A DNA stretch of 64,000 nt, taken from positions 474,509 to 538,508 of the forward strand of contig JALOQK010000002.1 in assembly GCA_025453395.1 (NCBI GenBank). The letters run 5' to 3'. Origin of the DNA: Candidatus Omnitrophota bacterium (GTDB lineage Bacteria > Omnitrophota > Gorgyraeia > Gygaellales > Profunditerraquicolaceae). Under the pieces are notes generated by a model, which made no database searches, was not told the DNA's origin, and saw only the letters and a program-made list of their open reading frames with translations. The position numbers and the translations under genes were made by a program. Every line of letters begins with the position of its first letter. The first letter of the stretch is position 1. Of the stretch, positions 232-39,562 are shown piece by piece.

Positions 232-1095
232 CTATCCGAATTTAATATCTACCGAAGTGTGCCCGAATTCCTGAAAGCGATTGGTCTTTATTTTCACGTC
301 ACAAGGGTTACAAAAACCGAACATACCGCACTTTCTATATTTATCCTCTAAAACAAACCCCCCGTCATAAAGAGAGCCTATGGGCTTAAAATCTTGATAC
401 ACATCGTGGTGACAACGAAAAATATCCGCCTTAGGATCAATCAAGAACTCTGTGCTTTTGCATAAAACATCCTTCGGATTGTTTAGATCAAAACATCCCG
501 GGTATTTATACTGCCCGTGCATTTTACCACGATACTCTCCTAAAAAGTCTTTAAGCCTAAAATCAATCCCCATCTTTTTTGCCTTCTCTTGAGAACTAAG
601 AATTTGTTTTTTGTATTTGGGATGCAAAACCGACCAGACCCCGATACTGAAGCCTTTGTCCTGTAAAGCTAAAACCTTTGATGCAGTCTTATTAAAATCC
701 ATGGTTTCGGGATGATAACTGACTCTTATAGATGCGTAAGGCGCCTGACGCTTAACCCTGTTAGGATTGACTTTCTTGGCAAAATCATCCGCATCAAATT
801 GCAAATTAGTCAATATATCTATTGTCAATCCTGGCTTCAAATGATTGATAATATAAATAAAATCCGGGTGCAGGCTTGGCTCTCCCCCCTGCAAGCTAAC
901 CGGAAGATCCGCGCGGGATTGGATGCGGTTTAACAACTCAACCCAATCTTTTCCAGAAATCATCTTACGCTTCTTAAGATTCCCCTCAAAATTATTAATG
1001 CAATAGCTGCATTTTAAATTACAGGCAAAGGTAAGAAAAACTCCGATATAATTATAAGAATCGGGTATTTTAATCGGCTTTAAAATCTTCTTCAT
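232..1095 (-). CDS. Small radical SAM enzyme with a Cys-rich C-terminal region
   Basis: CX3CX2C motif FACNLKCSYC near the N-terminus and a GGEP glycine-rich SAM motif. Six additional Cys in the C-terminal third (CFDL, CKS, RCHHD, KCGMFGFCNPC) suggest an auxiliary Fe-S cluster. Confidence 0.65.
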   Translation of the reverse strand: MKKILKPIKIPDSYNYIGVFLTFACNLKCSYCINNFEGNLKKRKMISGKDWVELLNRIQSRADLPVSLQGGEPSLHPDFIYIINHLKPGLTIDILTNLQFDADDFAKKVNPNRVKRQAPYASIRVSYHPETMDFNKTASKVLALQDKGFSIGVWSVLHPKYKKQILSSQEKAKKMGIDFRLKDFLGEYRGKMHGQYKYPGCFDLNNPKDVLCKSTEFLIDPKADIFRCHHDVYQDFKPIGSLYDGGFVLEDKYRKCGMFGFCNPCDVKIKTNRFQEFGHTSVDIKFG

Positions 1096-1817
1096 TTGTA
1101 TTTTGCCTTTAATTTAAAAAGCTCAAGAAAAGACGGGATGATTTCTTTAAATAAAGAAAACTTACTCCCTGCCACATCCTGCCATAGCCTAAGCGGATAC
1201 TCTACAACGCCCGATCCCTGCTTTAGAAGGCGCAGTATTATTTCCAGATCGAATAACCATTTTACAATAAACCTATCCTTAAAACAAATATCAATTACTT
1301 CCTTGCGAAAGATCTTTGCGCCGCACTGCGAATCATAAACTTTTATTTTCAAGACTACCCCCACCATCGTGGCAAAAAATCTTCCACAATAATGCCTAAA
1401 AGCAAAACGCTTTATAACAGATCCCAGGCGCAGCACCCTGCTTCCTAAGACAGCGCTGCAATCAGGATAAAGAGCTTTTTGGTAGCCCATGAAATCATTT
1501 AATTCTTCCAAAGGCGTTGCCAAATCCGCATCCCAGAAACCCGCCCAAGAAACATCTTTCCAGAAAGGCATTGTCTTCAGATGCAGCATGCCCTGACGCA
1601 CCGCCTCTTGTTTGCCATAGTTCTTATCCAACGACAGAATATGGACTCTTTGGCTTAAATGCCTTCTTATAACTTCCGCGGTAGAATCATTTGAACCATC
1701 ATCAACAAACAAGAAAAAAACATTATGGCCGCTTGATAGGAATTTATTCATATCAAGCCGCTTTTCTTCGTTATAACAAGGTATTACTAAGAAGATTATT
1801 TCTTGCAGACCATGCAT
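1092..1817 (-). CDS. Family 2 glycosyltransferase
   Basis: VIPCYNEE...FVDDGSNDST and a DAD (DXD-like) motif typical of the GT-A fold. There is a 4-nt overlap with the downstream gene. Confidence 0.8.
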   Translation of the reverse strand: MHGLQEIIFLVIPCYNEEKRLDMNKFLSSGHNVFFLFVDDGSNDSTAEVIRRHLSQRVHILSLDKNYGKQEAVRQGMLHLKTMPFWKDVSWAGFWDADLATPLEELNDFMGYQKALYPDCSAVLGSRVLRLGSVIKRFAFRHYCGRFFATMVGVVLKIKVYDSQCGAKIFRKEVIDICFKDRFIVKWLFDLEIILRLLKQGSGVVEYPLRLWQDVAGSKFSLFKEIIPSFLELFKLKAKYK

Positions 1818-2515
1818 ATTGACAACCCCGGCAATTTGATCCCTGCCTTGGATAGAATGCGATTCAGATAAAAATCAAAATTCAATAAACCTCTGAATAA
1901 AAAAGTAAGTGCGTGCCCTCGGCCAAATCTCCATCCTGACGCGCCACACTGGCATGAAACCCCAAAGAACTTTTCCTTTAATTTAATTATAGCCCGCGGC
2001 AAAACAAGCGTAGAATAGAAATAAAACCCTTCTTCCACTTTCAACCCTGAAACCTGAATTAATCCGGAAAGCTTCTGATAATTATACCTACGCAGATGCT
2101 TTAAAAATTTATCATGCCCGGTAAATAAAAATTGATAGGCCGGGACAGTTATGATAAATTCTGCACCGGGCTTGATTATCCTGTTCAGAGAATATAGAAA
2201 TCCTGCTTCATCCTCCACGTGCTCCAAAACATCTAAAGCTAAAACTACATCCACGCTTTCTTGAGGAATACTTGAAAGGCTATTAATCTTTTTTATCTTG
2301 CCATTCTTGTCCTCTTGAGCATAAGCTTTATCAAATGCCCAGATTTTATCGGCATAGCCTTCTAAAGATAAACTGAAAAATAAATCTCCGGATCCTATGT
2401 CAGCATACTGCAAACCAAAAGGCTTCTTCTTTAATAACATCAAAAGAGAATCTCGGCGAGATAATTCCCAGGGGTGCCGGTTACCTTTAAACGCGGTTTT
2501 CTCAATTAGATCCAT
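1796..2515 (-). CDS. Class I SAM-dependent methyltransferase
   Basis: Motif I-like YADIGSGDLF and a downstream LALDVLEHVEDE motif characteristic of Methyltransf_11/23-type enzymes. Confidence 0.65.
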   Translation of the reverse strand: MDLIEKTAFKGNRHPWELSRRDSLLMLLKKKPFGLQYADIGSGDLFFSLSLEGYADKIWAFDKAYAQEDKNGKIKKINSLSSIPQESVDVVLALDVLEHVEDEAGFLYSLNRIIKPGAEFIITVPAYQFLFTGHDKFLKHLRRYNYQKLSGLIQVSGLKVEEGFYFYSTLVLPRAIIKLKEKFFGVSCQCGASGWRFGRGHALTFLFRGLLNFDFYLNRILSKAGIKLPGLSICMVCKK

Positions 2516-3637
2516 CTAAATAAAATTAACATGCATTGGCGGCTTGCCTTGAGTTTTTTCAAGGGCGCAATTGCCGTTCTTTAAATCCCATAAGAATTCA
2601 TTTACCTTATGCTGCAAACACAAAGTCCCGCACATGGTCCTGGGGTCAAACTCATTCGAAGCAATCAAATCCATGACTTGCCAATAGCGCTTACTCTGCC
2701 AGATTTTCTTAAAAGAAGTTTGCGCAATATTGCCGATATGAAACTTTTTATATTTGCTGTTAAAAAGCATGCCGCAGGGCGCAACTAACCCTGACCCGGA
2801 GAATTGCATAATAAATGGCGGCCCGAAACAAGCGCTGTACTTTCTTTTGCCGCAACTTAGTATCTTCGACCATTTAGCCTTAACCAGGTACTTAGAATTG
2901 GAGATACTTTCGGCTTTTTTCAAAAGATCGGTCAACCCAAAATATTTATTGTAATCAACTCCCAGGGAGCCTGTTTCATCATCACTACAGTGCTTGACTA
3001 CTAAATAATCCACACCCAATTGTTTTCCTAACTTTGCCAAAGGGATCACCTGGTCGGCATATTGCGGCAAAAGCACCATCTGAAGCCCCAAAGTCACAGG
3101 AAACTTATTTTCTTTTTTTATCTTTACACAAGTTCTTATAATCTTAACGACTCTGTCAAAAGAGTTTTCTTCGCAACCCATAACCTTGGCATATTTGCCA
3201 GCAGTAGCTGCTGAAATATTAAACCGCAAATAGGTCAGATCTTTTAACAGCCCAGGCAGCCTTTGTTCTTTTAATAAAAACCCGTTAGTGCCCAAAGCCA
3301 TATCAAGGCCATTTTTCCTGCCTCTTTCCACAGCATCATAAAGATGCGGTGAGCAGGCGCTTTCTCCGTCGCTGACAAAACTTACCGCCTTTACCCCGAT
3401 ACTTGCGGAATCATCCAAAAAACGAAAAATCACATCGCGGGTCATCTTCTTTTCGTCGTTTGCCTGAAGCTTGCCGTAACAATAGACACAGCGGTAATTG
3501 CATCTTCTGGTCAACGCGCAATCAATAGTAATAGGCGCGATCCTTTCGCCGGCCAGCCATGCCTCTAATCTTTGGCGGTGCCAAAGAAGCTTATGCCCGT
3601 CTAAAACTATATTCTTGCCGGATATCTTATCTTGCAT
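2516..3637 (-). CDS. Radical SAM enzyme with a Cys-rich C-terminal SPASM/twitch-like region
   Basis: LTRRCNYRCVYCYG (CX3CX2C) plus Cys-rich C-terminal segments (CGKRKYSAC...CGTLCLQH). The C-terminus ends in ...HVNFI, the same ending as the rSAM at 6432-7496. Confidence 0.8.
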   Translation of the reverse strand: MQDKISGKNIVLDGHKLLWHRQRLEAWLAGERIAPITIDCALTRRCNYRCVYCYGKLQANDEKKMTRDVIFRFLDDSASIGVKAVSFVSDGESACSPHLYDAVERGRKNGLDMALGTNGFLLKEQRLPGLLKDLTYLRFNISAATAGKYAKVMGCEENSFDRVVKIIRTCVKIKKENKFPVTLGLQMVLLPQYADQVIPLAKLGKQLGVDYLVVKHCSDDETGSLGVDYNKYFGLTDLLKKAESISNSKYLVKAKWSKILSCGKRKYSACFGPPFIMQFSGSGLVAPCGMLFNSKYKKFHIGNIAQTSFKKIWQSKRYWQVMDLIASNEFDPRTMCGTLCLQHKVNEFLWDLKNGNCALEKTQGKPPMHVNFI

Positions 3638-3639
3638 AA

Positions 3640-4398
3640 TTAATCTTTGTTGTATCTTTGGTATGAAATGCTGTCTTTAATCAGGTTCAAGGGTTTTTCT
3701 TTTCTTAATAAATACACTTCAAGAAAAAGCTTGATGTAACCCTTGACTACTGCCCTGAATGAACGCCAGGAAATTGCCTTAGGATTGCCTGCCAAACGAG
3801 TCCGCAGGCGATAGGGAACCTGGGCGTAAAGATACCCTCTTTTTAAAAGGCGCACCAAGATATCTGTCTGAAAGAAAAAACCCTTATTGCGGCAGGATAA
3901 TGACTTTAGCACGCTTGTGCGGTACAACACCGTCCCGTTGGTATAAGTCAAACCGATCTTAAAAGTATAATTAATTATAGATACGTAGGCAGATGAAACC
4001 AGATTCCTAAAAGCCGACCGGGCATTGCGGTTAAAAACAAATGGGATAACCATATCAACATCTGACATAAGCCATAAATAGCGGATAATCTCTTCGGGCT
4101 TATTCTCGTTATCCCCGGGCAGCATACAGACAACCTCATGCCTTGCTTTATCAACCGCATCCCAAAAAGATGCCCCTATCCCGCAAGGCGTAACATGCTC
4201 AATAATGTCAACCTGGCCCGGGAAATCACGCATTAGCTCGCGCACCAATGATCCTGTTGCATCGGTGCTGCCGTCATTTACTACTAAAACCTCTGCCTTT
4301 ATCCCAAAGGCCTTGAAGGCATTCAAGGTATCCGTTACGGCAGCAACGATATTTTTCTCTTCGTTTAAAGCCGGCATGGCTACAGTTAAAGAAATCAT
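3640..4398 (-). CDS. Family 2 glycosyltransferase
   Basis: MPALNEEKNI...VVNDGSTDATG and LPGDNENKPEE; GT-A fold signature. Confidence 0.8.
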   Translation of the reverse strand: MISLTVAMPALNEEKNIVAAVTDTLNAFKAFGIKAEVLVVNDGSTDATGSLVRELMRDFPGQVDIIEHVTPCGIGASFWDAVDKARHEVVCMLPGDNENKPEEIIRYLWLMSDVDMVIPFVFNRNARSAFRNLVSSAYVSIINYTFKIGLTYTNGTVLYRTSVLKSLSCRNKGFFFQTDILVRLLKRGYLYAQVPYRLRTRLAGNPKAISWRSFRAVVKGYIKLFLEVYLLRKEKPLNLIKDSISYQRYNKD

Positions 4399-5451
4399 TT
4401 ATCCGCCTTTAGCTATTTTTCTAATCTTGCAAATAATATTTTCCAAGTTAGGATAAAATTCTTTCTCTAGGACATGGCTGGCCGGAGTCGGGACATCAGC
4501 AAGCGCGATCCTCTCTACGGGCCGTGCCAAGAAAGAAAAACAATTCTCCGTGATCATAGAGCTTATTTCGGCGCTTATCCCGCAAAAAGCATACCCAAAA
4601 TCAAGCACTATGGCTTTTTTTGTCTTCTTGACTGAAGAAAAAATAAGCTCTGCGTCTATGGGTTTAACAGTTCTTAGATCCACTATTTCAATATCTATGC
4701 CTTCATCTTGAAGCTTCTTACCGGCCTCAAGGGCAATCGCGGTCATAAAGGAGCTGGTAATAACGGTTACGTCTTTACCCTGCCTTCTTAACACAGGTTT
4801 GCCTAAAGGCACCAAATACGCCTCTTCCGGGACATAATCTTTATAATCAAAAAGCCATCTATGATCTATAAACATAACCGGATCAGGGCAAGCAATACTT
4901 GATAAAAGCAACCCCTTAGCATCATAAGCCGTTGATGGCATAACCACTCTTAAACCCGGAATATGCGCGAAAATAGCCTGGATCGGCTGTGAATGCTGGG
5001 CAGCTGATCCCCATCCCCCTCCAATGATCGCGCGGATTACTATGGGAAGATTAACTTTTCCGCCAAACATATATTTCCACTTCGCGGCGTGATTGATAAT
5101 CTGGTCCATAGAAACAAGCAAAAAATCCGTGCGCATATGGATTAATACCGGGCGCATACCGGCCAAAGACGCGCCAATAGCGATGCCGGTAAGAGTATTT
5201 TCGCAGATAGGGGTGTCAAACACCCTATCTTTAGAAAATTGCTTATGCAGATTCAAGGTTGTACCAAAAACTCCTGCCGGGTCATCTATGCCTTCCCCAA
5301 AGAGAAATACCTTAGGGTCTTGTTTTAAGGCAATAGCAAAAGCCTCGTGTATCGCCTGGCGATAAGTGATAAGCCTGTTTCCCGCCAGGGTATTATCCTC
5401 TGGCAAAACACGCAAATCCGACAGGTCTACAGGAACTTTATCCCATGACAT
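4399..5451 (-). CDS. ThDP-dependent 2-oxoacid dehydrogenase / transketolase-like E1 component, beta subunit
   Basis: ITYRQAIHEA...DPKVFLFGEGIDDPAGVFGTT...FDTPICEN..GIAIGASLAGMRPV matches the E1-beta pyrimidine-binding and transketolase C-terminal pattern. Confidence 0.8.
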   Translation of the reverse strand: MSWDKVPVDLSDLRVLPEDNTLAGNRLITYRQAIHEAFAIALKQDPKVFLFGEGIDDPAGVFGTTLNLHKQFSKDRVFDTPICENTLTGIAIGASLAGMRPVLIHMRTDFLLVSMDQIINHAAKWKYMFGGKVNLPIVIRAIIGGGWGSAAQHSQPIQAIFAHIPGLRVVMPSTAYDAKGLLLSSIACPDPVMFIDHRWLFDYKDYVPEEAYLVPLGKPVLRRQGKDVTVITSSFMTAIALEAGKKLQDEGIDIEIVDLRTVKPIDAELIFSSVKKTKKAIVLDFGYAFCGISAEISSMITENCFSFLARPVERIALADVPTPASHVLEKEFYPNLENIICKIRKIAKGG

Positions 5452-5469
5452 TTTTATTTCGCCTTTTGC

Positions 5470-6429
5470 TTAATAAATATCTGTGCGTAAATCTTCTTTT
5501 TCCGGATAGGGGCTTTTTACGGCAAATTCCCAAGCCTCTTTTACTTCTTCATCTGCTCTATGTTCTATATCCAAAAGTTCATTTTCTTTTAATAATTTAT
5601 TGGCAAGAATCTGACGATGAAATCTTTTATAAGGGCATTTCTTCATCCACTTTTCCACTTCTTCTCTGGCGCGAAACCCTTTTTCAATATCCGTCTCCGG
5701 TCCCACATGGGTACGAAAACGATAGGTGCGCGCCTCTATAAAACAAGGGCCAGAACCTTTTCTGATGCGCGCAATAAAATCGCCTGATTTCTTATAAACT
5801 TGGATTACATCATTTCCATCAAGAAGCGCTTTGGGCATAGAGAAAAAATCTGCTATTTTATAAATATCTGGATTTGCCTGCCGAACCTTTTGTGAAGAAT
5901 TAGTCGCGTAGAAATTATTTTCGCAAACAAAAAGAATGGGCAGTTTCTTTAATTTGGCGAAATTCATACTCTCAAAGAATGTCCCCTGCTCTATTGCCCC
6001 ATCACCAAGGAAAATTACCACAATCTGCCTTTGCCTCTGTAATCTTACTGCCAATGCCGCTCCTGTCCCAATAGGAATTCCACCTGCCACAATGGCACTT
6101 GTGCCGAAAATAGAATTTTCTAAAGATACCATATGGGTGGAACCGCCCTTGCCCGAAGAACAACCGGTTTTCTTGCCATAAAGCTCGGCAAACATCTCTT
6201 TAATATCCGCGCCCTTGGCAATCAAGTGCCCGTGGTTACGGTGATAGCTAAAAAGATAATCGCTTTTCTTTAGATGCGCGCATACCCCTGTGGCAATTGC
6301 CTCTTGGCCGATATAAAGATGCACTGGGCAACGCATTTGCTGTTCGGGATAGTGCTGAATGATTTTATCCTCAAACTTGCGGATTTTAACCATCCGATAA
6401 TACAAATCTTTGATTATTCTTTTATCCAT
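5470..6429 (-). CDS. ThDP-dependent 2-oxoacid dehydrogenase / transketolase-like E1 component, alpha subunit
   Basis: YRMVKIRKFEDK...HLYIGQEA...YHRNHGH and the ThDP-binding GDGAIEQG...(x)...NNFYA motif. No E2 or E3 gene is adjacent. Confidence 0.85.
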   Translation of the reverse strand: MDKRIIKDLYYRMVKIRKFEDKIIQHYPEQQMRCPVHLYIGQEAIATGVCAHLKKSDYLFSYHRNHGHLIAKGADIKEMFAELYGKKTGCSSGKGGSTHMVSLENSIFGTSAIVAGGIPIGTGAALAVRLQRQRQIVVIFLGDGAIEQGTFFESMNFAKLKKLPILFVCENNFYATNSSQKVRQANPDIYKIADFFSMPKALLDGNDVIQVYKKSGDFIARIRKGSGPCFIEARTYRFRTHVGPETDIEKGFRAREEVEKWMKKCPYKRFHRQILANKLLKENELLDIEHRADEEVKEAWEFAVKSPYPEKEDLRTDIY

Positions 6430-8456: not shown

Positions 8457-8488
8457 ATTATATCAGATATCATACTTTTCTGAATCAA
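8457..8488 (-). promoter_or_regulatory. Candidate internal sigma70-like promoter with extended -10 (TTGATT-17-TGATATAAT) upstream of the GT9 gene
   Basis: Minus-strand reading gives TGATATAAT, overlapping the TGA stop of the upstream gene, with TTGATT 17 nt upstream. AAGGAG Shine-Dalgarno and ATG follow about 25 nt downstream. Confidence 0.3.
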
Positions 8489-8972: not shown

Positions 8973-8976
8973 TTTC

Positions 8977-12000: not shown

Positions 12001-12006
12001 AACCTC

Positions 12007-13779: not shown

Positions 13780-13791
13780 AAGCTTTAAGGC

Positions 13792-14247: not shown

Positions 14248-14265
14248 AGAATTATCCCTTTCTAT

Positions 14266-31728: not shown

Positions 31729-31729
31729 T

Positions 31730-33196: not shown

Positions 33197-34682
33197 CCTT
33201 CTTTTTTGTCCTCCAGAAATAGCTTGTAATCGTGCTTATTACAAACACCGGATGATTCAGCATAAGCGCGCCCCAGCGAAATATAAAAGCGCGAAAATTC
33301 CTCAAGACTAATCCAGCATTTAATTTAAAGGCCTCGCTGAAATATATTTCCTCAAGCTGTTTGCGGGTAAAATTCTCAGTGTCGTAACTAGCGGTGCTAA
33401 ATTCTGAGCGCAAAAAATCATGCCCTTCTGGGATGTAGCCCTTTTCTTTGCAAATACGCATAAGGTCTGTCCCGGGAAGAGGCGTGGCAATTGACAAAAA
33501 GACCGAATCCGGTTTTATTTCCCGGATAAAGGAAAATGTCTTTTTGATCTCCTCCATCGTCTCTCCAGGATACCCCATAGAGAAAAATGTGCTAATCACA
33601 AGTCCTAACTTCTTGGCGATTTTCATGTTAGTTCTTACAATATCTAAGCTTACCGGCTTGTGGATAATATCTTTTAATACCCTATCGCTTCCGCTTTCAA
33701 CCGCAAAACGAAGCTCATACGCCCCGCAATCTTTCATCGCGCGCATCATTGGCTCATCTAACGATGCTACTACCAGGCCGTTTGGTGTCGACCAACGCAG
33801 ATTAAACTTACCTTGTTTGATTTGACTAAAAATCTTCATTGCCCTGTTATAATCAGAAGTCAAGCTATCATCAGTAAACTGTAATTCTTTGATCTTGTAG
33901 GTCTTAACCAAATGCTCTATCTCGGTCAAAACATTTTGCGGACTGCGGCAACGGTATTGGCGCAGCCAATAGTTTTTGCCAAAGCAAAAAATACAATTAT
34001 AAGGGCAGCCTCGTGAAGTTATAATGGTCAGGCTTCTTTTAATAAAAGAGAGATTCTGGTTTAGGTTTATTTTGAAATATTTTTCTATAGGCACCAAATG
34101 CCGCGCGGGAAAAGGCAGCTCATCAAGATTTTGAATCAATTTTGTTTTAGGATTCACTATAATTTTATTGCCTTTGCGATAAGCTATGCCATCAATAGCG
34201 CTAAAATCACTCCCGCCAGAATTCAATACTCCCACCAAGTCCCTAAATGGATACTCCGCCTCATGCATCAAAACAAAATCCACATGAGAATGATATTCTA
34301 AGGTTTTATCGGGAAAAAGCGTGGGATGCGGGCCGCCTAACACCGTAACGATATCCGGCGAAACCTCTTTTACGGCAGCACAGGCATCTAATGAATTGGT
34401 AAACTCTAATGATGACTGACAGGCAACGCCGACTACACCGGGCGAAAAATCACGAATAACCTTTTTTATGCTATCATAACTTAAACCATAGCGGATATGG
34501 CGGGAATCAATATTCTGCTGATTCTTAAAACCCTCTAAGGCAGCGTCTAAAACCTTAACCTGATAGCCGCTTTTTTCCATAACCGCGGCAATATAAAGTA
34601 CCCCTAAAGAAGGAGTGGTGATCTTTAACCTGCCCACAGGCAATGTGCAAGGAGGAATTAACAGGAGTATTCTTTTATTCAT
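33177..34682 (-). CDS. Cobalamin-binding (class B) radical SAM enzyme
   Basis: N-terminal LLLIPPCTLPVGR...LGVLYIAAVMEKSGYQVKVLDA B12-binding-like domain and TSRGCPYNCIFCFG CX3CX2C. 501 aa; 20-nt overlap with the upstream paralog. Confidence 0.8.
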   Translation of the reverse strand: MNKRILLLIPPCTLPVGRLKITTPSLGVLYIAAVMEKSGYQVKVLDAALEGFKNQQNIDSRHIRYGLSYDSIKKVIRDFSPGVVGVACQSSLEFTNSLDACAAVKEVSPDIVTVLGGPHPTLFPDKTLEYHSHVDFVLMHEAEYPFRDLVGVLNSGGSDFSAIDGIAYRKGNKIIVNPKTKLIQNLDELPFPARHLVPIEKYFKINLNQNLSFIKRSLTIITSRGCPYNCIFCFGKNYWLRQYRCRSPQNVLTEIEHLVKTYKIKELQFTDDSLTSDYNRAMKIFSQIKQGKFNLRWSTPNGLVVASLDEPMMRAMKDCGAYELRFAVESGSDRVLKDIIHKPVSLDIVRTNMKIAKKLGLVISTFFSMGYPGETMEEIKKTFSFIREIKPDSVFLSIATPLPGTDLMRICKEKGYIPEGHDFLRSEFSTASYDTENFTRKQLEEIYFSEAFKLNAGLVLRNFRAFIFRWGALMLNHPVFVISTITSYFWRTKKKDAYGEV

Positions 34683-36167
34683 TTATACGCTTAAATCCTG
34701 GTTAAACTTTTGATAAATACTTTCCAAGAAATCCATCGCCTTGCCCTTTCTTAAAGCAAGCCATAATGCCTTTATTACAAAAACCGGATGCCCCAAAATC
34801 GTCATAATCGCTCTTAGCAGGTACTTCGGACTATTTAAAAAAGCGATCATAGTTTGCATGTTATTACGCCAGAAAAAAGCATTCTCTAAAGAAGCGCGTA
34901 TTTTCACCAATTGATCAGCTTTGAAGCTTGCCTGCATTACCGGCACATTAGACTGCTTATTAGTCCATCTTTGATCAAAAATAATCTTTTCATCAACAAA
35001 CCATTTATTCTCTATAGCCATCTTATACAATGGCGACCCCGGATAAGGAACTAATATCAGAAATCCCACTCCTGCGGGAGCCAGTTTAGCTATTTTTCTT
35101 GTTTGCTCTATATCCTCTATTGTCTCTTCGGGATTGCCGATAATAAAAGTGGCAAAAGATTCCATCTTTACTTTCTTAAGATTACTAAAAGACCGCGCGA
35201 TCATTTCTTGAGTAATGCCTTTTTTTAAAATCTTTAATATCCGGTCAGACCCAGATTCACATCCAATGTCAACTTGCACACAGCCCGCTCTCTTTAGCAT
35301 TTCTAAAACAGATAGCTCGCCTGCTATGTCCGCGCGGGTCTGGCAACCCCAAAACATATTGACCTTCTTATCAACTATAGAACGGCAAAAATCATCAAGC
35401 CAATTTCTATCCGAGGCAAAGGTATCATCATTAAAATATATCCCTTTAACCGCGTGATTATCCCGCAGATAAACCATCTCTTCTAAAACATTTTCTACGG
35501 AGCGCCTGCGGATCTTTGCCCCATGCACAATCTTACTTGCGCAAAAAATACACTGATAAGGACACCCCCGGGAGGCATACATGGTAGTAACCCCTTGATA
35601 AAACTTGCCTCTTAATATCCCCGGAGGAGATAAATACCATTTAAAAGAAGGCGCTACCAACAAACTCCTGTCAGGTATAGGCAAAATATCCAGATCCTGG
35701 ATGAAATCCCCTCTGCCGTTATCAACGATCTTCTTGTTTCTATCTCGGTATACAACGCCTCTTATGCCAGATAAATCCATGTCCTGGGAAAGCCGATCGC
35801 AGACATCCAGCATAACAAACTCTGCTTCGCCAACAACCACAAAATCAATATTGGAATCCTCTAAAACTTCTTCCGGCAAAGCTGTGGCGTGCACCCCTCC
35901 CCAGCAAATTTTGCTGTTCTTATTCTCCTGGCGCAAATAAACGGTATATTCATGGGCCACTTGAAAGCCGGTTGTAAGCACACTTACTCCTATTAGATCC
36001 GGATTGAAATCCCTGATCGTATCTAGATTTTTCCTATGCGATGAAGGAAATGAATCAATAATCCTAACATCGCACCCGGCATTTCTTAGCATTGTCCCAA
36101 TATACAAAATCCCCATCGGAACAACGGGAGTATAATTCTCGCGAAAGAATATTAAGACAACGCGCAT
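34683..36167 (-). CDS. Cobalamin-binding (class B) radical SAM enzyme
   Basis: MRVVLIFFRENYTPVVPMGILYIGTMLRNAGCDVRIID B12-binding-like N-terminus and ASRGCPYQCIFCAS. 494 aa. Confidence 0.8.
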   Translation of the reverse strand: MRVVLIFFRENYTPVVPMGILYIGTMLRNAGCDVRIIDSFPSSHRKNLDTIRDFNPDLIGVSVLTTGFQVAHEYTVYLRQENKNSKICWGGVHATALPEEVLEDSNIDFVVVGEAEFVMLDVCDRLSQDMDLSGIRGVVYRDRNKKIVDNGRGDFIQDLDILPIPDRSLLVAPSFKWYLSPPGILRGKFYQGVTTMYASRGCPYQCIFCASKIVHGAKIRRRSVENVLEEMVYLRDNHAVKGIYFNDDTFASDRNWLDDFCRSIVDKKVNMFWGCQTRADIAGELSVLEMLKRAGCVQVDIGCESGSDRILKILKKGITQEMIARSFSNLKKVKMESFATFIIGNPEETIEDIEQTRKIAKLAPAGVGFLILVPYPGSPLYKMAIENKWFVDEKIIFDQRWTNKQSNVPVMQASFKADQLVKIRASLENAFFWRNNMQTMIAFLNSPKYLLRAIMTILGHPVFVIKALWLALRKGKAMDFLESIYQKFNQDLSV

Positions 36168-36170
36168 AAA

Positions 36171-37673
36171 TTAAATTCTTTTTCTTTTTAAGCCTAACTT
36201 CTTCTTGATATGCCAAAAATAATAACTTACGTATTGGAACCCGGATAAATCTCTTTTTGCAAACATAACAATAAAATCCACAACAAATAAAGTTAACCCT
36301 TTAGGCAAATACTTAAAATACTTTTGCAGATTATATTTGAGTATAAACTCTACTAGAGGCTTGGGCAAAAGAGGCATCGCCCTAAAAAGTATTTCATAAT
36401 TCTTGAACACTTTAAGCAAATTCCTGTTTTTTAAATATCCGTGCGAGCCGGCAATATAACAGGGAGATTCTCCTTTATTGATTGCCTCTATATCGCTTGA
36501 GGTGAGCATATCCAAACTCTTGGCAATATCTACCAAATCGGTATTGGGAAAATAGGTAGTCCAGAAACAGGTGATCCTTACCCTATTCCTAAAACCCGCG
36601 TAAGAACGCGCAGCCAATATCTGGTCCTCTTCTTTCTCGCCCGGTAGCCCAAACATATGATCGCAGGAATATTTTAACCCCACCTTGTCGCATATCTCAA
36701 AAGTCTGAATGATCTTGCTATTTTTCTCGTTCCTGAAAAGATAGTTCTTTTTAGTATCCTCGTTAAAAGTCTGCACGCCAAACTGCACCCGATGACAGCC
36801 TGCCTCCTTTAGAGAGCGCGCTGTATCCTCGTCTATGCATAGAGGATGAGAAATAGCCCTGAAGGGGACATTGATTTCTTTCTTGTAACGATGCATCAAT
36901 TCTTGGGTCCATTTCTTATCAACAGTCAAAACGCTATCGTAAAACCCCACTTCGCGGTAATTATAGCGCTTTTTCATTATGATCAATTCCTGCATTACAT
37001 TATCCACGCTCCTGCGGCGCTTATCCCTTGTATTATTGAATTTAGACATAAAATTCTGCGAGCAGTATGAGCAGGCATACGGACAACCCTTGGCAGTCAT
37101 TGTCATATACATGCGGCTTATATTAACCTCGTCCTCGAAAAGCTTTTTATCCAAAAAAGGCAGCTTTTCTAAATCAACAAGCGCTCTTACGGAATTACGG
37201 ATAATCCCTTTTTTGGTTTTAAACCAAATATTTTTGATGCCGTAATCAATATTCTTTTTTTCCATGCTGTTCAATAATTCCAACATCGCCTCTTCGCCTT
37301 CGCCAGTACAAACCATATCTACGCAAGGAAGCGAAATAATATAGTCTGGCTTGGCAGTCGGAAAGACCCCGCCAAAAATGACCGGAATATTCTTTATTTT
37401 CTTTACATCCTGGGCAACTGAAACTGCCCATCTGAAATTATCTGTAAAAACCGAAAAACCCAAGACATCAGGCTTAGAATCTATGATTTTCTTAACTAGG
37501 GCTTTTCTATCATCAAGTATCCTGTGCAGCCAAGGGATCTTAAAATAATTAACATCATCGAACAGCGCCGGATCAAAAACGAGGTTAACCGTATGACCAT
37601 GCCTTTTCACAAAGGCTGAAATTGCCTCTAAACTCAAACTCTCTGCCCCCATGAAAACAACCGTTAATCGCAT
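36171..37673 (-). CDS. Cobalamin-binding (class B) radical SAM enzyme
   Basis: MRLTVVFMGAESLSLEAISAFVKRHGHTVNLVFDP B12-binding-like N-terminus and TAKGCPYACSYCSQ. 500 aa. Confidence 0.75.
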   Translation of the reverse strand: MRLTVVFMGAESLSLEAISAFVKRHGHTVNLVFDPALFDDVNYFKIPWLHRILDDRKALVKKIIDSKPDVLGFSVFTDNFRWAVSVAQDVKKIKNIPVIFGGVFPTAKPDYIISLPCVDMVCTGEGEEAMLELLNSMEKKNIDYGIKNIWFKTKKGIIRNSVRALVDLEKLPFLDKKLFEDEVNISRMYMTMTAKGCPYACSYCSQNFMSKFNNTRDKRRRSVDNVMQELIIMKKRYNYREVGFYDSVLTVDKKWTQELMHRYKKEINVPFRAISHPLCIDEDTARSLKEAGCHRVQFGVQTFNEDTKKNYLFRNEKNSKIIQTFEICDKVGLKYSCDHMFGLPGEKEEDQILAARSYAGFRNRVRITCFWTTYFPNTDLVDIAKSLDMLTSSDIEAINKGESPCYIAGSHGYLKNRNLLKVFKNYEILFRAMPLLPKPLVEFILKYNLQKYFKYLPKGLTLFVVDFIVMFAKRDLSGFQYVSYYFWHIKKKLGLKRKRI

Positions 37674-37681
37674 TTAATAAA

Positions 37682-38518
37682 TTAACCTTTCGTTTTGTTC
37701 TGAACAAAATGTAACAATGATGCTGTAGGCGGGCAAAATACGCGGAAAGGCGTCATGCCGCTTGTGCCCAACCCGGAATTAACATGCAAATAAGTATCCC
37801 CAAATTTAAATAAACCTCTGTTGTATTTTCTTTGAAAGGAAGAAATGGTAACAAGCGGACCGATAAATGGAAGCCGGATCTGGCCTCCGTGCGTATGGCC
37901 AGAAAGCATAAGCTGCATATCAAGCCCTTTTAAATTTTCCATAATATCCGGCAGATGGGAAATAACTATCTTATATGAATCTTTATCCATCCTGGATACA
38001 AATTCCCTTAAAGAACTGATCTCTTTATCAAAGTTGCGCCAGATCTTCAGGCGGTCATACCCAAAAGGCCCCTCAATGCCGGTAATATCCAATCTTACTC
38101 CATTAACACAGAATTTCTGGTATACATTATCTAATACATTGATGCCCTTGTTCTCTAATTCTCTTCTTAGAAGCGAAATGTTGTTTTCCTTAAGCCTGCG
38201 CAAAAAAGGAAAAAACAAAAACTCTTTTAAACCCAAACTATGACGATCATGGTTTCCGTATCCGGCCAAAACCCCATAGCGCGGCTTTAACAAGCCCAAA
38301 TAATGCGCACACGCACCTATGCCCCGATTATCATCAATCATGTCCCCGCTTATAATCGTAAAATCAGAATCAATATCCTGAATTTGCGCGAATATACGGT
38401 CAAACCGTTTACTGCGGTTTATAAAATGAAAATCTGAAATATGAAGTATTTTCAAACCCTCTAAAGCTTGGAATTTACTGGGCAGATTAATACTTATGTC
38501 TTCTTTTACAAAATCCAA
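37682..38518 (-). CDS. Calcineurin-like metallophosphoesterase
   Basis: ILHISDFHF (DxH), ISGDMIDD (GDxxD), GYGNHDRH (GNHD/E) and a later GHTHGG; canonical MPP motif set. Confidence 0.75.
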   Translation of the reverse strand: MDFVKEDISINLPSKFQALEGLKILHISDFHFINRSKRFDRIFAQIQDIDSDFTIISGDMIDDNRGIGACAHYLGLLKPRYGVLAGYGNHDRHSLGLKEFLFFPFLRRLKENNISLLRRELENKGINVLDNVYQKFCVNGVRLDITGIEGPFGYDRLKIWRNFDKEISSLREFVSRMDKDSYKIVISHLPDIMENLKGLDMQLMLSGHTHGGQIRLPFIGPLVTISSFQRKYNRGLFKFGDTYLHVNSGLGTSGMTPFRVFCPPTASLLHFVQNKTKG

Positions 38519-39562
38519 TTATTTTCTCCAACCGGCCTCTATGAAACTATTCTTAATGTGATTTAGGATAACATGCGGCGAAAGCCCCAAAAGCATATTG
38601 TAATCATTAAAGCAAATAAAGGCATAGCAGGTCTTGCAACTATGGTCCTTAATATTCTCCCAAGCCCTGATAAACCCATGTTCTACAAAACTTAAAGCGG
38701 GGATCATCTGAATCATCTGCGAACAAGGATACACCTTGCCATCTGAATCTATAATGCACATATTCTTGCCCGCATGGCACTTAATGTGCCTGCCGAAATC
38801 TTTAATCGCGCCAGCCTCTATTGATTTCTTATTGTAATCTGGCCAATCCAAAGTATATTGATGAGCCTGTTTAGAAAAGAAAACCGGATAGCCCTTTTTC
38901 TTATAATCAATAATCTTTCTTAAGGCGTTTTTGTAATCTTCTCTAGAAGCCAAGAAATCCTGATTGCTTTGAAAAAATGGCAGCAAAAACTGCACGAAAA
39001 ACTTTTTTTCTTTAGCCAGATCTAAAATATGCTCTATGGCATGCACATTATATTTGCTGATCATAGTACTTGTATGCACATTGATATTATTCTTCTTGGC
39101 TAAATCAATTGCCTCTATCACTTTACGGTAAGAGCCTTTCCCCTTATACAGATCATGCGATTGTTCATCACCGTCTAAACTAATGCATAAGGTATTAAGT
39201 TTTTTAACCGCGCTTAACCTCTGAGGCACAAGGTGTCCATTTGTATTCATGTGGCATTCGATACCATTTTTACGTATATAATCAATGACCTGCTCAATAT
39301 CCTTGCGCATCAATGGCTCACCTGCCCCCAAATTTATTATCTTTGTGCCTAAAGATTTTAATTCATCGATAAGCGCCAAGAGCTGTTCAGTGGTAAAATC
39401 TTTTGTGTCGCGCTTATCATAAGTGCCATAACAATAACTGCACTTTAAATTACAGGTATTGGTCACATTAATATGCACTGTAAGCGGAATGGATTTCTTG
39501 GTAAAGGCTATGTTCAAAATAGAAGAAAAAATCCCAACCTTAGAAAAAATATTACTGGCCAT
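38519..39562 (-). CDS. Radical SAM enzyme with a Cys-rich C-terminal SPASM/twitch-like region; paralog of 30673-31728
   Basis: INVTNTCNLKCSYCYG, AGEP and C-terminal CHAGKNMC...CSQMIQ...CKTCYAFICFNDYN. Confidence 0.8.
   Translation of the reverse strand: MASNIFSKVGIFSSILNIAFTKKSIPLTVHINVTNTCNLKCSYCYGTYDKRDTKDFTTEQLLALIDELKSLGTKIINLGAGEPLMRKDIEQVIDYIRKNGIECHMNTNGHLVPQRLSAVKKLNTLCISLDGDEQSHDLYKGKGSYRKVIEAIDLAKKNNINVHTSTMISKYNVHAIEHILDLAKEKKFFVQFLLPFFQSNQDFLASREDYKNALRKIIDYKKKGYPVFFSKQAHQYTLDWPDYNKKSIEAGAIKDFGRHIKCHAGKNMCIIDSDGKVYPCSQMIQMIPALSFVEHGFIRAWENIKDHSCKTCYAFICFNDYNMLLGLSPHVILNHIKNSFIEAGWRK

What the first reader, a model, noticed from the sequence alone, without database searches (positions are those of the whole stretch)
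232..39562. Extreme radical SAM density: ten radical SAM enzymes interleaved with eight GT2 glycosyltransferases in about 40 kb
Besides the four class B enzymes there are six radical SAMs with Cys-rich C-terminal regions (232, 2516, 6432, 15745, 30673, 38519). SPASM/twitch radical SAMs are best known as peptide maturases or as sugar/cofactor dehydrogenases (anSME, BtrN; established knowledge). I found no RiPP-like precursor peptide among the small ORFs, and every neighbouring gene is glycan-related. This argues for carbohydrate substrates of the BtrN or DesII type (radical dehydrogenation, deoxygenation or epimerisation of sugars). That usage of SPASM enzymes is largely uncharacterised, and it occurs here at a density that looks lineage-specific.
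Basis: inference. Interest (0 to 1): 0.7.

Follow-up and report, generated by a model that had tools for sequence, protein, structure and literature searches.

The report
Radical-SAM-rich surface glycan gene island
A 47-kb, single-strand gene island of an uncultured Omnitrophota bacterium mixes ten radical SAM enzymes with sugar-nucleotide, thiamine-dependent and glycosyltransferase genes. Their conserved neighbours elsewhere point to unusual sugar chemistry for a cell-surface glycan, not to peptide natural products.

Summary
The observation largely holds. All ten ORFs are radical SAM (rSAM) enzymes at the stated coordinates, and four are cobalamin-type. Only six genes are GT2; the count reaches eight only if a GT9-like and a GT87-like gene are added.

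The window comes from a Candidatus Omnitrophota MAG. No rSAM reaches any curated NCBIfam cut-off.

The six 'Cys-rich' enzymes conserve only 4-5 C-terminal cysteines. That implies one auxiliary cluster (twitch-like), not a full SPASM domain.

The region is 98.6% coding. No conserved small ORF occurs in 82 related loci, and the enzymes lack N-terminal leader-binding domains. RiPP maturation is therefore very unlikely.

Context supports sugar substrates:
- Orthologues of the 6432 enzyme sit next to a thiamine-dependent enzyme in 38 of 39 loci and next to heptose genes in 31 of 39. The structural model matches DesII and BlsE best.
- The 15745 family lies inside glycan loci in five of five contexts and occurs fused to a GT9.
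- The 38519 / B12-rSAM / heptose module recurs in a Nanoarchaeota MAG.

Equal rSAM density occurs in Kuenenia and DPANN glycan loci, so the density is not lineage-specific. The products remain unknown. This is a new variant of a known kind.

The parts
232..1095 (-). rSAM_A, 287 aa, short radical SAM enzyme with conserved C212, C228, C256, C262, C265
   Evidence: PF04055 37 bits. Cys conserved in 6/6 homologues. Homologues at 45-64% identity lie next to GT9/E1/GT2 genes in L016, L022, L024, L036 and L086.
1092..1817 (-). GT2 glycosyltransferase, soluble, 241 aa
   Evidence: PF00535 51 bits. No TM segment.
1796..2515 (-). Class I SAM methyltransferase
   Evidence: Methyltransf_23/11 hits.
2516..3637 (-). 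rSAM_B, paralogue of rSAM_C (32% identity), same HVNFI C-terminus, auxiliary Cys C270, C288, C336, C340
   Evidence: PF04055 plus SPASM 31.6 bits. Best PDB sequence hit is DesII. Cys conserved in 21/25 homologues. Paralogy shown. Present in 21/39 rSAM_C loci.
3640..4398 (-). GT2 glycosyltransferase, soluble, of the conserved rSAM_C module
   Evidence: PF00535 59 bits. Orthologues at 44-55% identity in many loci.
4399..6429 (-). ThDP-dependent E1 beta (4399-5451) and E1 alpha (5470-6429) pair, with no E2/E3 partner
   Evidence: Pfam Transket_pyr/Transketolase_C and E1_dh. NCBIfam PDH E1 beta 334 bits (above 321) and E1 alpha 337 bits (below 394). A ThDP enzyme neighbours rSAM_C in 38/39 loci.
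6432..7496 (-). rSAM_C, 354 aa, twitch-like, DesII/BlsE-like fold; anchor of the conserved heptose-rSAM-ThDP module
7499..8425 (-). GT9-like (heptosyltransferase family) glycosyltransferase
   Evidence: PF01075 47 bits. Heptosyltransferase II 53 bits, below cut-off. Orthologues at 49-68% identity lie upstream of rSAM_C in 7 loci.
8463..14706 (-). Block of membrane proteins: 8463, 8977, YfhO-like 9471, 10789 (6 TM), 12007 (7 TM, PMT_2-like by homology to L093), 13792 and 14266. Probable GT-C type periplasmic glycosyltransferases and accessory proteins.
   Evidence: YfhO hit. TM counts. L093 homologues at 42-47% identity, one carrying a weak PMT_2 hit.
14746..15738 (-). GT2 with 3 C-terminal TM helices (GtrB/ArnC-like architecture)
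   Evidence: PF00535 110 bits. TM segments. Conserved downstream of rSAM_D in L092 (40%) and L093 (53%).
15745..16848 (-). rSAM_D, 367 aa, with C237 plus C319-x2-C322-x5-C328 and a helical C-terminal domain
   Evidence: PF04055. Invariant Cys. AF2 pLDDT 90.6. Inside glycan loci in 5/5 contexts. GT9 fusion in P0318.
16859..17928 (-). DUF2304 small membrane protein (16859-17203) plus soluble GT2 (17194-17928)
   Evidence: DUF2304 called in L001 and L093. PF00535 78 bits. 60% identical GT2 in L093.
17928..19148 (-). S41 C-terminal processing peptidase with PDZ domain; conserved next to the STT3-like gene in L093
   Evidence: L093 homologue at 54% identity.
19145..22262 (-). RfbH/E1 CDP-4-keto-6-deoxyglucose 3-dehydrase (19145-20620) plus ALS-like ThDP enzyme (20460-22262); candidate YerE-type acyl-branching pair
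   Evidence: RfbH 679 bits (above 423). ALS-like 380 bits (below 538). YerE chemistry from PMC9306805.
22266..29569 (-). GT2 with 2 TM (22266), FkbM methyltransferase (23195), NeuB-like synthase (24393), epimerase/reductase (25484), GT87-like GT-C (26365), flavin amine-oxidase-like protein (27558), GT2 (28835)
   Evidence: Amine-oxidase-like protein and GT2 are conserved in L089.
29576..30676 (-). DUF362 fused to a 2x[4Fe-4S] ferredoxin; candidate electron donor
30673..31728 (-). rSAM_E, paralogue of rSAM_F (36% identity), with C268, G281, C286, C314, C317 invariant
31730..37673 (-). Four tandem B12-binding (class B architecture) radical SAM enzymes, old paralogues at 24-32% identity
   Evidence: for domains; none reaches a cut-off (best Sden_1168 288/575; HpnJ about 200/578). 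for identities. AprD4 is the best PDB hit for two of them. B12_3 and B12_4 have orthologues at 58% and 53% in Nanoarchaeota L089.
37682..38518 (-). Metallophosphoesterase, weakly LpxG/YaeI-like
   Evidence: Conserved in L089 at 40% identity.
38519..39562 (-). rSAM_F, 347 aa, twitch-like, with C262, G275, C280, C309, C312 invariant
   Evidence: Contexts L089, L090 and L091.
39552..44875 (-). Methyltransferase (39552) plus a heptose-type sugar-nucleotide pathway: GHMP kinase HddA-like (40320), epimerase (41310), GmhA-like SIS isomerase (42272), transaldolase (42832), NTP-transferase/GmhB phosphatase fusion (43550)
   Evidence: The same set lies next to rSAM_F in L089.
44872..47383 (-). MBL-fold protein, CDP-glucose 4,6-dehydratase-like protein (45612), glucose-1-phosphate cytidylyltransferase (46598)
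   Evidence: cytidylyltransferase 386 bits (above 300); dehydratase 214 bits (below 278).
47515..50028 (+). STT3-family GT-C membrane protein with a variant 'WWCPG' motif, divergently placed at the head of the island
   Evidence: PF02516 74 bits. Motif check. Same arrangement in L093.

Best explanation
This is a composite cell-surface glycan biosynthesis island of about 47 kb and 45 genes. All genes except one lie on the same strand. It belongs to an anaerobic Candidatus Omnitrophota bacterium and is anchored beside an STT3-family membrane glycosyltransferase and a type II secretion / type IV pilus-like operon.

The ten radical SAM enzymes are most likely sugar-tailoring enzymes. They would act on nucleotide-activated or polyprenyl-phosphate-linked sugars before transfer by GT2, GT9 and GT-C enzymes. 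They form four kinds.

1. rSAM_C and rSAM_B (6432, 2516) are DesII/BlsE-like enzymes with one auxiliary cluster. They work with a ThDP-dependent enzyme (here E1 alpha/beta) on a heptose-derived nucleotide sugar. The inferred chemistry is radical oxidation or dehydration to a keto-sugar, followed by ThDP-mediated C2 (acyl) branching as in YerE, followed by a second radical step.
2. rSAM_F and rSAM_E (38519, 30673) and the four B12-type enzymes modify the product of the adjacent heptose-type pathway. The inferred reactions are C-methylation, dehydration or rearrangement.
3. rSAM_D (15745) acts between two GT2 steps of a lipid-linked sugar route that feeds periplasmic GT-C enzymes.
4. rSAM_A (232) is a further tailoring enzyme.

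Shown: enzyme identities, conserved cysteines and conserved synteny. Inferred: the substrates and every reaction type.
For: - The ten enzymes have intact CxxxCxxC and GGE-type motifs.
- The organism is Omnitrophota.
- rSAM_C orthologues are flanked by a ThDP enzyme of three different types (E1ab, split transketolase, ALS-like) in 38/39 loci, by heptose genes in 31/39, and by rSAM_B in 21/39. The immediate upstream gene is SIS, HldE or GT9 in 29/41.
- The window itself contains a YerE-type pair, RfbH plus an ALS-like ThDP enzyme, together with CDP-glucose genes. The YerE reaction is described in PMC9306805.
- Best PDB sequence hits of rSAM_C are AbmM, SpeY, viperin-like enzymes, BlsE and DesII.
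- The best PDB sequence hit of rSAM_B is DesII.
- rSAM_D homologues lie in glycan loci in Omnitrophota, a MAG deposited as Patescibacteria, Nanoarchaeota and a Wzz/Wzy/Wzx locus of Nitrospiraceae. A Woesearchaeota protein fuses GT9 to an rSAM_D-like domain.
- The rSAM_F module recurs with the same heptose-type genes in Nanoarchaeota.
- B12_2 and B12_3 are closest to AprD4 among solved structures.
- There are no precursor ORFs and no RRE domain.
Against: - No substrate or product is known. No enzyme reaches a curated family cut-off.
- E/F family profiles hit the RiPP enzymes SkfB and CteB best. The D profile hits the lipid enzyme GDGT-MAS as well as BlsE.
- In this window the rSAM_C module is 33 kb away from the heptose genes.
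- HpnJ (hopanoid) and P-methyltransferase models are the best, though sub-threshold, hits for the B12 enzymes.
- An S41 protease is conserved in the locus, so a protein substrate for some enzyme cannot be excluded.
Confidence: 0.7

Rival explanations
1. Some or all of the rSAMs modify the lipid part of the system rather than the sugar. Candidates are the polyprenyl-phosphate carrier or membrane lipids, by analogy with hopanoid side-chain, tetraether or ladderane-type chemistry. The glycosyltransferases would then decorate a glycolipid.
For: - Best NCBIfam hits of three B12 enzymes are HpnJ, at about 195-202 bits. Lipid-biosynthesis B12 rSAM models score 87-135 bits.
- The rSAM_D profile hits GDGT-MAS at 87 bits.
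- Several GT2s have GtrB/ArnC-like TM tails or a DUF2304 partner, so lipid-linked intermediates are expected.
- L004 has LytB, polyprenyl synthase and UbiA genes just downstream.
Against: - All of these hits are far below their cut-offs (HpnJ 578, ladderane-type 360, Tes 450).
- No squalene/hopene cyclase, fatty-acid or ether-lipid genes occur in the window.
- The conserved partners are sugar-nucleotide and ThDP enzymes.
- The isoprenoid genes in L004 are on the other strand.
Confidence: 0.12
2. Some rSAMs act on a protein. The target could be the glycoprotein itself (a pilin or surface protein), or another enzyme matured in the manner of anSME or a glycyl-radical activase.
For: - STT3-like, S41 protease and pilus/T2SS genes are conserved neighbours.
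- E/F profiles are closest to SkfB and CteB.
- The best, sub-threshold, NCBIfam hit for rSAM_B and rSAM_C is a tungsten-enzyme maturase (84 and 108 bits against a 380 cut-off).
Against: - No sulfatase, AOR or glycyl-radical enzyme gene is nearby.
- The enzymes lack the N-terminal peptide-binding domain. Alignments to SkfB and CteB start at their residues 104 and 99.
- rSAM_D and rSAM_F homologues occur in loci without pilus or STT3 genes.
Confidence: 0.08
3. The six non-B12 rSAMs are RiPP maturases acting on a ribosomal precursor peptide. The glycosyltransferases would glycosylate that peptide.
For: SPASM/twitch rSAMs are best known from RiPP pathways. Many sub-threshold NCBIfam hits are to RiPP maturases. 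SuiB and SkfB rank high in the fold searches.
Against: - The region is 98.6% coding with no free small ORF.
- No conserved small-ORF family exists in 82 homologous loci. The only clusters are fragments of truncated large genes.
- No RRE/PqqD domain was found, and the rSAM motif starts at residue 22-46.
- No protease/ABC-exporter pair typical of RiPP clusters was found among the annotated genes.
Confidence: 0.03
4. The rSAMs are housekeeping tRNA/rRNA or cofactor enzymes (MiaB/RimO, MoaA, heme d1/AhbD) that happen to be encoded here.
For: MoaA, NirJ/AhbD and MiaB/RimO models give sub-threshold hits.
Against: - All scores are 3- to 10-fold below the cut-offs. For example, MoaA reaches at most 88.6 against 284, and MiaB/RimO at most 52 against 251.
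- Orthologues are consistently embedded in glycan loci across phyla.
Confidence: 0.01

Closest known systems
DesII (TDP-4-amino-4,6-dideoxy-D-glucose deaminase/dehydrogenase; PDB 8hzv/8hzy)
   Different: Identity is 15-17%. The NCBIfam DesII model scores 45 bits against a cut-off of 450. rSAM_B and rSAM_C carry four conserved auxiliary Cys. To my knowledge (not tested here) DesII has no auxiliary cluster. The partner here is a ThDP enzyme and heptose genes, not a DesI aminotransferase in a macrolide pathway.
BtrN and SpeY (twitch-domain radical SAM dehydrogenases of aminocyclitols)
   Same: All have a single auxiliary [4Fe-4S] site built from a C...G-x4-C hairpin plus a later Cys pair. The substrates are carbohydrate-like. 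Twitch is defined as a truncated SPASM domain binding one cluster (PMC9012708).
YerE, ErwE, AviB1/B2-type ThDP-dependent acyl branching of keto sugars
   Same: A ThDP enzyme is encoded beside deoxy/keto-sugar-forming enzymes. The window has an RfbH plus ALS-like pair, and rSAM_C always has a ThDP neighbour. YerE couples pyruvate to CDP-4-keto-3,6-dideoxyglucose (PMC9306805).
   Different: Here the keto-sugar-forming partner would be a radical SAM enzyme, and the sugar would be a heptose derivative. Three non-orthologous ThDP families substitute for one another. That AviB1/B2 are E1ab-type is from my own knowledge, not tested.
AprD4, GenK, GenD1, Fom3-type B12-domain radical SAM enzymes of sugar or antibiotic pathways
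   Same: They share the B12-binding-plus-rSAM architecture. AprD4 (a diol dehydratase acting on an aminoglycoside) is the best solved relative of B12_2 and B12_3 (E 7e-20 and 9e-23).
   Different: The AprD4 NCBIfam model scores 97-114 bits against a cut-off of 500 for B12_1 to B12_3, and 26 bits for B12_4. Four divergent paralogues stand in tandem. Whether they methylate, dehydrate or rearrange is unknown.
Three-component periplasmic glycosylation systems (GtrA/B/V; ArnC/ArnD/ArnT)
   Same: A GT2 with TM tail or small membrane partner (14746, 22266, 17194 plus DUF2304) is combined with GT-C type membrane enzymes (YfhO-like, PMT_2-like, GT87-like, STT3-like). rSAM_D sits where ArnD-like tailoring of the lipid-linked sugar would occur.
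   Different: The tailoring enzyme is a radical SAM enzyme. The analogy rests on gene order and my own knowledge of these systems.

Membership tests
Radical SAM superfamily (PF04055) | CxxxCxxC cluster motif and a Radical_SAM domain above Pfam gathering score | tested here: met
   All ten ORFs score 37-105 bits against a cut-off of 29.5.
Class B (cobalamin-dependent) radical SAM | N-terminal B12-binding domain (PF02310) fused to the rSAM domain | tested here: met
   31730, 33177, 34683 and 36171 score 59-85 bits against a cut-off of 32.1. Cobalamin binding itself is not testable here; AprD4, the nearest structure, has such a domain too.
SPASM domain rSAM | Seven-Cys motif binding two auxiliary clusters | tested here: not met
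   Only 4 conserved auxiliary Cys in the C, D, E and F families, 4-5 in B and 5 in A. Pfam SPASM is above cut-off only for 2516 and 6432. Definition from PMC9012708.
Twitch domain rSAM | Truncated SPASM: beta-hairpin with C...G-x4-C plus further Cys, binding one auxiliary cluster | tested here: met
   Met for B, C, E and F by motif (C-x17-C with G-x4-C, then CxxC or CxxxC) and for C by a modelled hairpin at 272-282. Inconclusive for A. Not met for D, whose C-terminal domain is modelled as all helical. Cluster content needs spectroscopy.
RiPP rSAM maturase | Adjacent precursor peptide gene | tested here: not met
   No free small ORF in the window. No conserved small-ORF family in 82 loci covering 860 kb.
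RiPP rSAM maturase | N-terminal RRE/PqqD-like leader-binding domain | tested here: not met
   The rSAM motif begins at residue 22-46. No PF05402 hit. Alignments to SkfB and CteB start at their residues 104 and 99.
DesII (TIGR04426) | Score above curated cut-off of 450 bits | tested here: not met
   2516 scores 44.6 bits. The fold resemblance is nevertheless the best available.
HpnJ (TIGR03471) / P-methyltransferase Sden_1168 (NF038361) | Score above curated cut-off (578 / 575 bits) | tested here: not met
   Best HpnJ score is 202 bits. Sden_1168 scores 288 bits for 33177.
tRNA/rRNA-modifying rSAM (MiaB/RimO/MtaB, RlmN/Cfr) | Best hit to, and score above the cut-off of, those families | tested here: not met
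   At most 52 bits against cut-offs of 251-357, and never the best hit.
CDP-3,6-dideoxyhexose / yersiniose-type branched sugar pathway | G1P cytidylyltransferase, CDP-glucose 4,6-dehydratase, RfbH (E1) and a YerE-like ThDP enzyme | tested here: inconclusive
   RfbF scores 386 (above 300) and RfbH 679 (above 423), so both are met. The dehydratase scores 214 (below 278). The ALS-like enzyme scores 380 (below 538), so it is not an ALS, but no YerE model was available. No E3 reductase or YerF was identified.
GDP-D-glycero-D-manno-heptose pathway (GmhA, HddA, GmhB, HddC) | All four activities present above cut-offs | tested here: inconclusive
   All four domain types are present and adjacent, but each is below its equivalog cut-off: HddA 185/600, GmhA 65/209, GmhB 143/178, HddC 75/300. 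A transaldolase (281.1 against 281.95) is co-clustered.
STT3/PglB/AglB oligosaccharyltransferase | STT3 membrane domain plus catalytic WWDYG motif | tested here: inconclusive
   PF02516 scores 74 bits (met). WWDYG is replaced by WWCPG, and the same variant is conserved in L093.

The most novel reading that the evidence does not exclude
Uncultured anaerobes make surface glycans whose sugars are built by radical chemistry not yet described for cell-surface polysaccharides. This includes the ultra-small, host-associated Omnitrophota and DPANN archaea. Two units are involved. The first is a conserved two-enzyme unit, a DesII-like one-auxiliary-cluster rSAM plus a ThDP enzyme, that converts a nucleotide-heptose into a new acyl-branched or higher-carbon sugar. 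The second is a portable module of twitch rSAMs and cobalamin-type rSAMs that C-methylates or rearranges a heptose- or octose-type sugar. The second module is exchanged between Bacteria and Archaea.
Probability: 0.35. Interest if true: 0.8.

Novelty: new variant of a known kind. Interest (0 to 1): 0.6.

Why it matters
Radical SAM sugar tailoring is known almost only from antibiotic pathways such as DesII, BtrN, AprD4, GenK and BlsE. This locus and its relatives show whole families of uncharacterised rSAMs embedded in primary cell-surface glycan loci. One family has more than 3000 members.

These loci occur in Omnitrophota, anammox Planctomycetota, candidate phyla bacteria (per deposited labels) and DPANN archaea. 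Their cell surfaces probably mediate attachment to hosts.

The near-obligatory pairing of the 6432 family with a ThDP enzyme and heptose genes gives a concrete, testable two-enzyme system. It could reveal a new sugar and a new rSAM reaction.

The finding also cautions against using a SPASM/twitch rSAM hit as a marker for RiPP clusters in metagenome mining.

Tried and rejected
1. The genome-contig scan with a single protein returned only two distant loci, L007 and L008. It was wasted; an alignment query should have been used. The metagenome scan with alignment A1 worked.
2. PDB sequence searches with single proteins and profiles give only generic rSAM-core matches for D, E/F and A. They mix sugar, peptide and lipid enzymes and cannot assign substrates.
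3. The fold search of the rSAM_D model matched only the core (BlsE, TMq 0.48). Its helical C-terminal domain found no match.
4. NCBIfam: no curated cut-off was reached by any rSAM. MoaA, NirJ, HpnJ, P-methyltransferase, tungsten-maturase and RiPP names are therefore rejected as assignments.
5. Clustering of small ORFs for precursor peptides was negative.
6. Literature searches found no description of this cluster type. The term sets were Omnitrophota + radical SAM; heptose + radical SAM + thiamine; SPASM + nucleotide sugar; DPANN + radical SAM + glycosyltransferase; and Kuenenia S-layer. The Kuenenia S-layer paper reports a heavily methylated O-glycan but links no genes to it.
7. A phosphonate pathway was considered because 33177 resembles P-methyltransferases. 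It was rejected because no PEP mutase was found among the annotated genes.
8. Recent tandem duplication of the B12 genes was rejected. They share only 24-32% identity.

Full report
**What is in the sequence**

From 232 to 47383 every sizeable ORF lies on the minus strand. The stretch is 98.6% coding. The only gaps of 30 nt or more are at 8426-8462, 14248-14745 and 16849-17193. The last two hold a 146-aa membrane protein gene and a DUF2304 gene, according to gene calls on identical public contigs.

Ten ORFs carry CxxxCxxC, and all ten hit Pfam Radical_SAM above threshold. Four of them (31730, 33177, 34683, 36171) also have a B12-binding domain.

Only six ORFs are GT2 by Pfam: 1092, 3640, 14746, 17194, 22266 and 28835. 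'Eight' is reached only by adding the GT9-like 7499 and the GT87-like 26365.

Ten rSAMs among 38 genes is far above any plausible background. The binomial P is 3e-9 at an assumed 2% and 1e-5 at 5%. The background rate is my assumption.

**Source and wider anatomy**

The 6432 protein is 100% identical to a protein of a 'Candidatus Omnitrophica bacterium' MAG on a 542-kb contig. Its relatives are overwhelmingly Omnitrophota.

The rSAM region belongs to a larger island with four recognisable parts.

- *A CDP-hexose route.* It includes glucose-1-P cytidylyltransferase (46598, 386 bits, above the 300 cut-off), a CDP-glucose 4,6-dehydratase-like protein (45612) and RfbH/E1 (19145, 679 bits, above 423). 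RfbH is overlapped by an ALS-like ThDP enzyme (20460). This is the gene logic of YerE-type acyl-branched 3,6-dideoxyhexoses (PMC9306805).
- *A heptose-type route.* It includes an HddA-like GHMP kinase, a GmhA-like SIS isomerase, a GmhB-phosphatase/NTP-transferase fusion, an epimerase and a co-clustered transaldolase.
- *Other tailoring genes.* These are a NeuB-like synthase, methyltransferases, and E1 alpha/beta without E2/E3.
- *Membrane transfer machinery.* It includes GT2s with GtrB/ArnC-like TM tails or a DUF2304 partner, and several GT-C type membrane proteins: YfhO-like, GT87-like, and the multi-TM proteins at 10789 and 12007.

Directly upstream, on the other strand, lies an STT3-family protein. 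A T2SS/T4P-like operon follows it.

**Classification of the rSAMs**

No rSAM reaches a curated NCBIfam cut-off. The best ratios are Sden_1168 P-methyltransferase at 288/575 for 33177 and HpnJ at about 200/578 for three B12 enzymes. MoaA, NirJ, AhbD, RiPP-maturase and tungsten-maturase models all score several-fold below their thresholds. MiaB/RimO-type hits are weaker still.

The ten enzymes fall into the following groups:

| Group | Members | Relationship |
|---|---|---|
| B/C | 2516, 6432 | 32% identical, shared HVNFI C-terminus |
| E/F | 30673, 38519 | 36% identical |
| D | 15745 | single |
| A | 232 | single |
| B12 | 31730, 33177, 34683, 36171 | old paralogues, 24-32% identical |

Family alignments show how few auxiliary cysteines are conserved.

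| Family | Conserved auxiliary residues |
|---|---|
| C | C266, G279-x4-C284, C328-x3-C332 |
| B | equivalent four Cys (21/25) plus C217 (23/25) |
| F | C262, G275-x4-C280, C309-x2-C312 |
| E | C268, G281-x4-C286, C314-x2-C317 |
| D | C237 plus C319-x2-C322-x5-C328 |
| A | five Cys, in 6/6 sequences |

A SPASM domain binds two auxiliary clusters. A twitch domain is its truncation and binds one (PMC9012708). These enzymes are therefore twitch-like, not full SPASM.

The D model (pLDDT 90.6) has an all-helical C-terminal domain that matches nothing in the PDB.

**Test of the RiPP alternative**

- The window has no room for a precursor gene.
- In 82 homologous loci (860 kb), all-against-all clustering of 746 intergenic small ORFs found no recurring family. 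The only clusters were fragments of truncated large genes.
- The rSAM motif begins at residue 22-46, and no PqqD/RRE domain is detected.
- Alignments of the E/F profile to SkfB and CteB begin at residues 104 and 99 of those proteins. The leader-binding N-domain is therefore absent.

I rate the RiPP reading at about 3%.

**Comparative genomics of the C/B module**

A metagenome scan with an alignment of 30 orthologues returned 80 loci. Among the 39 loci with at least 5 kb downstream of the rSAM_C orthologue, the neighbours were as follows:

| Neighbour | Loci (of 39) |
|---|---|
| ThDP enzyme (E1 alpha/beta, split transketolase, or ALS-like related to 20460) | 38 |
| Heptose genes (GmhA-like SIS, HldE, HddA-like kinase, NTP-transferase/HAD) | 31 |
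| Epimerase | 29 |
| rSAM_B-like enzyme | 21 |
| GT2 | 15 |
| B12-rSAM | 9 |

The labelled upstream neighbour is SIS, HldE or GT9 in 29 of 41 loci. A ThDP gene is among the next three labelled genes in 40 of 46.

Three non-orthologous ThDP families replace one another beside the same rSAM. This argues for a functional couple.

Its best PDB sequence hits are AbmM, SpeY, viperin-like enzymes, BlsE and DesII. The best hit of rSAM_B is DesII.

*Inference.* rSAM_C makes a keto- or deoxy-keto nucleotide-heptose by radical oxidation or dehydration. The ThDP enzyme adds an acyl (C2) branch, as YerE does. rSAM_B performs a further radical step. The adjacent GT2 or GT9 then transfers the product. None of these steps has been shown.

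**The D, F/E and B12 enzymes**

rSAM_D homologues were inspected in four further contexts. With the window itself, all five contexts are glycan loci.

- In L093, the order is T2SS/pilus genes, STT3-like (44% identity), S41 (54%), GT2 (60%), DUF2304, rSAM_D (60%), B12-rSAM, GT2 (53%), PMT_2-like, YfhO. This is a compact version of the window's backbone. The window carries about 29 kb extra between S41 and the STT3-like gene.
- In L092, rSAM_D lies between GT2s, together with GT4, DegT, a PMT/STT3-like protein, two B12-rSAMs and GT9.
- In L094 (Nanoarchaeota), there are six rSAMs and seven glycosyltransferases in 15 kb.
- In L095 (Nitrospiraceae), the homologue sits inside a Wzz/Wzy/Wzx locus with GT1 genes.

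A Woesearchaeota protein fuses GT9 to an rSAM_D-like domain. Another protein fuses an rSAM_D-like domain to a class I methyltransferase.

The rSAM_F family is small and patchy. It occurs in Omnitrophota, Nanoarchaeota, Kuenenia, Patescibacteria, Lokiarchaeia and others.

In a Nanoarchaeota MAG (L089), rSAM_F (54% identity) lies with orthologues of several window genes:

| Window gene | Identity in L089 |
|---|---|
| B12_3 | 58% |
| B12_4 | 53% |
| Metallophosphoesterase | 40% |
| Amine-oxidase-like protein | 45% |
| Epimerase | 50% |
| GHMP kinase | 45% |
| SIS isomerase | 33% |
| Transaldolase | 34% |

This is a module shared across domains.

Kuenenia sp. (L090) and L091 have at least 7 and 5 rSAMs respectively in 17 kb, together with GT1/GT2, epimerase and methyltransferase genes. 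Among the rSAM_C loci, L016 reaches 6 rSAMs in 21 kb. The density is thus a recurrent trait of such glycan loci in anaerobes. It is not specific to this lineage.

B12_2 and B12_3 are closest to AprD4, a sugar diol-dehydratase, among solved structures.

**Weaknesses**

- All functional statements rest on context.
- Fold and sequence ranks are close between sugar, peptide and lipid enzymes.
- In this window the C/B module is not adjacent to the heptose genes.
- Lipid-linked or protein substrates for some enzymes remain possible. I give the lipid reading 12% and the protein reading 8%.
- Taxonomic labels of metagenomic loci are those of the depositors.
- Literature searches in the held library found no description of this cluster type or of the rSAM-ThDP-heptose module. 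The library is incomplete.

**Verdict**

The carbohydrate interpretation is the best-supported reading, with confidence 0.7. The SPASM label and the lineage-specificity claim are not supported.

The finding is a new variant of a known kind: rSAM sugar tailoring, here in primary surface-glycan islands, with a conserved rSAM-ThDP couple. Interest is 0.6.

Noticed in passing
window 47515-50028 (+); L093 3021-5552: The STT3-family membrane protein (837 aa) has 'TWWCPGHF' in place of the catalytic WWDYG motif. The same variant occurs in the 44%-identical L093 homologue. The STT3-like protein in L010 has a canonical WWDFG. In both the window and L093 the gene lies between the glycan genes and a T2SS/T4P-like operon.
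   Followed up: partly
window 19145-22262, 45612-47383: A CDP-3,6-dideoxyhexose pathway (RfbF above cut-off, RfbG-like, RfbH above cut-off) is present. An ALS-like ThDP enzyme overlaps RfbH, which is the gene logic of yersiniose-type acyl-branched sugars. No E3 reductase or YerF-like reductase was identified.
   Followed up: partly
window 40320-44875; L089 13459-15937: A transaldolase is co-clustered with a SIS isomerase, a GHMP kinase and an NTP-transferase/HAD fusion. It is conserved with the isomerase and kinase in a Nanoarchaeota MAG. The five activities equal those of the lincomycin GDP-octose route LmbR/N/P/K/O (my own knowledge), so the product could be an octose rather than a heptose.
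   Followed up: no
L089 (GCA_043814765.1, Nanoarchaeota) versus window 25484-43548: A module is shared across domains at 33-58% protein identity. It comprises rSAM_F, two B12-rSAMs, a metallophosphoesterase, an amine-oxidase-like protein, an epimerase and a GHMP kinase.
   Followed up: partly
proteins P0318, P0347, P0301, P0324: rSAM_D-like domains occur fused to a GT9 glycosyltransferase, to a class I methyltransferase, or to a second rSAM domain. These proteins come from Woesearchaeota and from unnamed metagenome sequences.
   Followed up: partly
window 29576-30676: A DUF362 domain is fused to a two-[4Fe-4S] ferredoxin, directly upstream of rSAM_E and the four B12-rSAMs. It may be a dedicated reductant for the radical enzymes.
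   Followed up: no
window 17928-19148; L093 5663-6898: An S41 C-terminal processing protease with a PDZ domain is conserved (54% identity) between the STT3-like gene and the GT2-DUF2304-rSAM_D unit. This hints at a protein target that is processed and glycosylated.
   Followed up: no
window 19145-47383 versus L093: Relative to L093, the window carries about 29 kb of extra sugar-pathway genes between the S41 protease and the STT3-like gene. This would be expected of a variable glycan island at a conserved chromosomal site.
   Followed up: partly
window 55632-57791: The T2SS-E/PilB-type ATPase carries an N-terminal MshEN domain and a C-terminal PilZ domain. Both are c-di-GMP-binding modules to my knowledge.
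   Followed up: no
window 57805-63965: The ATP synthase genes include a b/delta (ATP-synt_B plus OSCP) fusion at 60191-60934. One alpha/beta-type subunit hits the V/A-type C-terminal domain model. The 329-aa ORF at 62976-63965 has no Pfam hit.
   Followed up: no
L006 4262-4684, L010, L094 14178-14606: A NUDIX hydrolase gene recurs directly beside rSAM_C-type or SPASM-type rSAM genes in several loci. The window instead has an LpxG/YaeI-like metallophosphoesterase next to rSAM_F. Both are enzyme types that, to my knowledge, can cleave nucleotide-sugar pyrophosphates.
   Followed up: no
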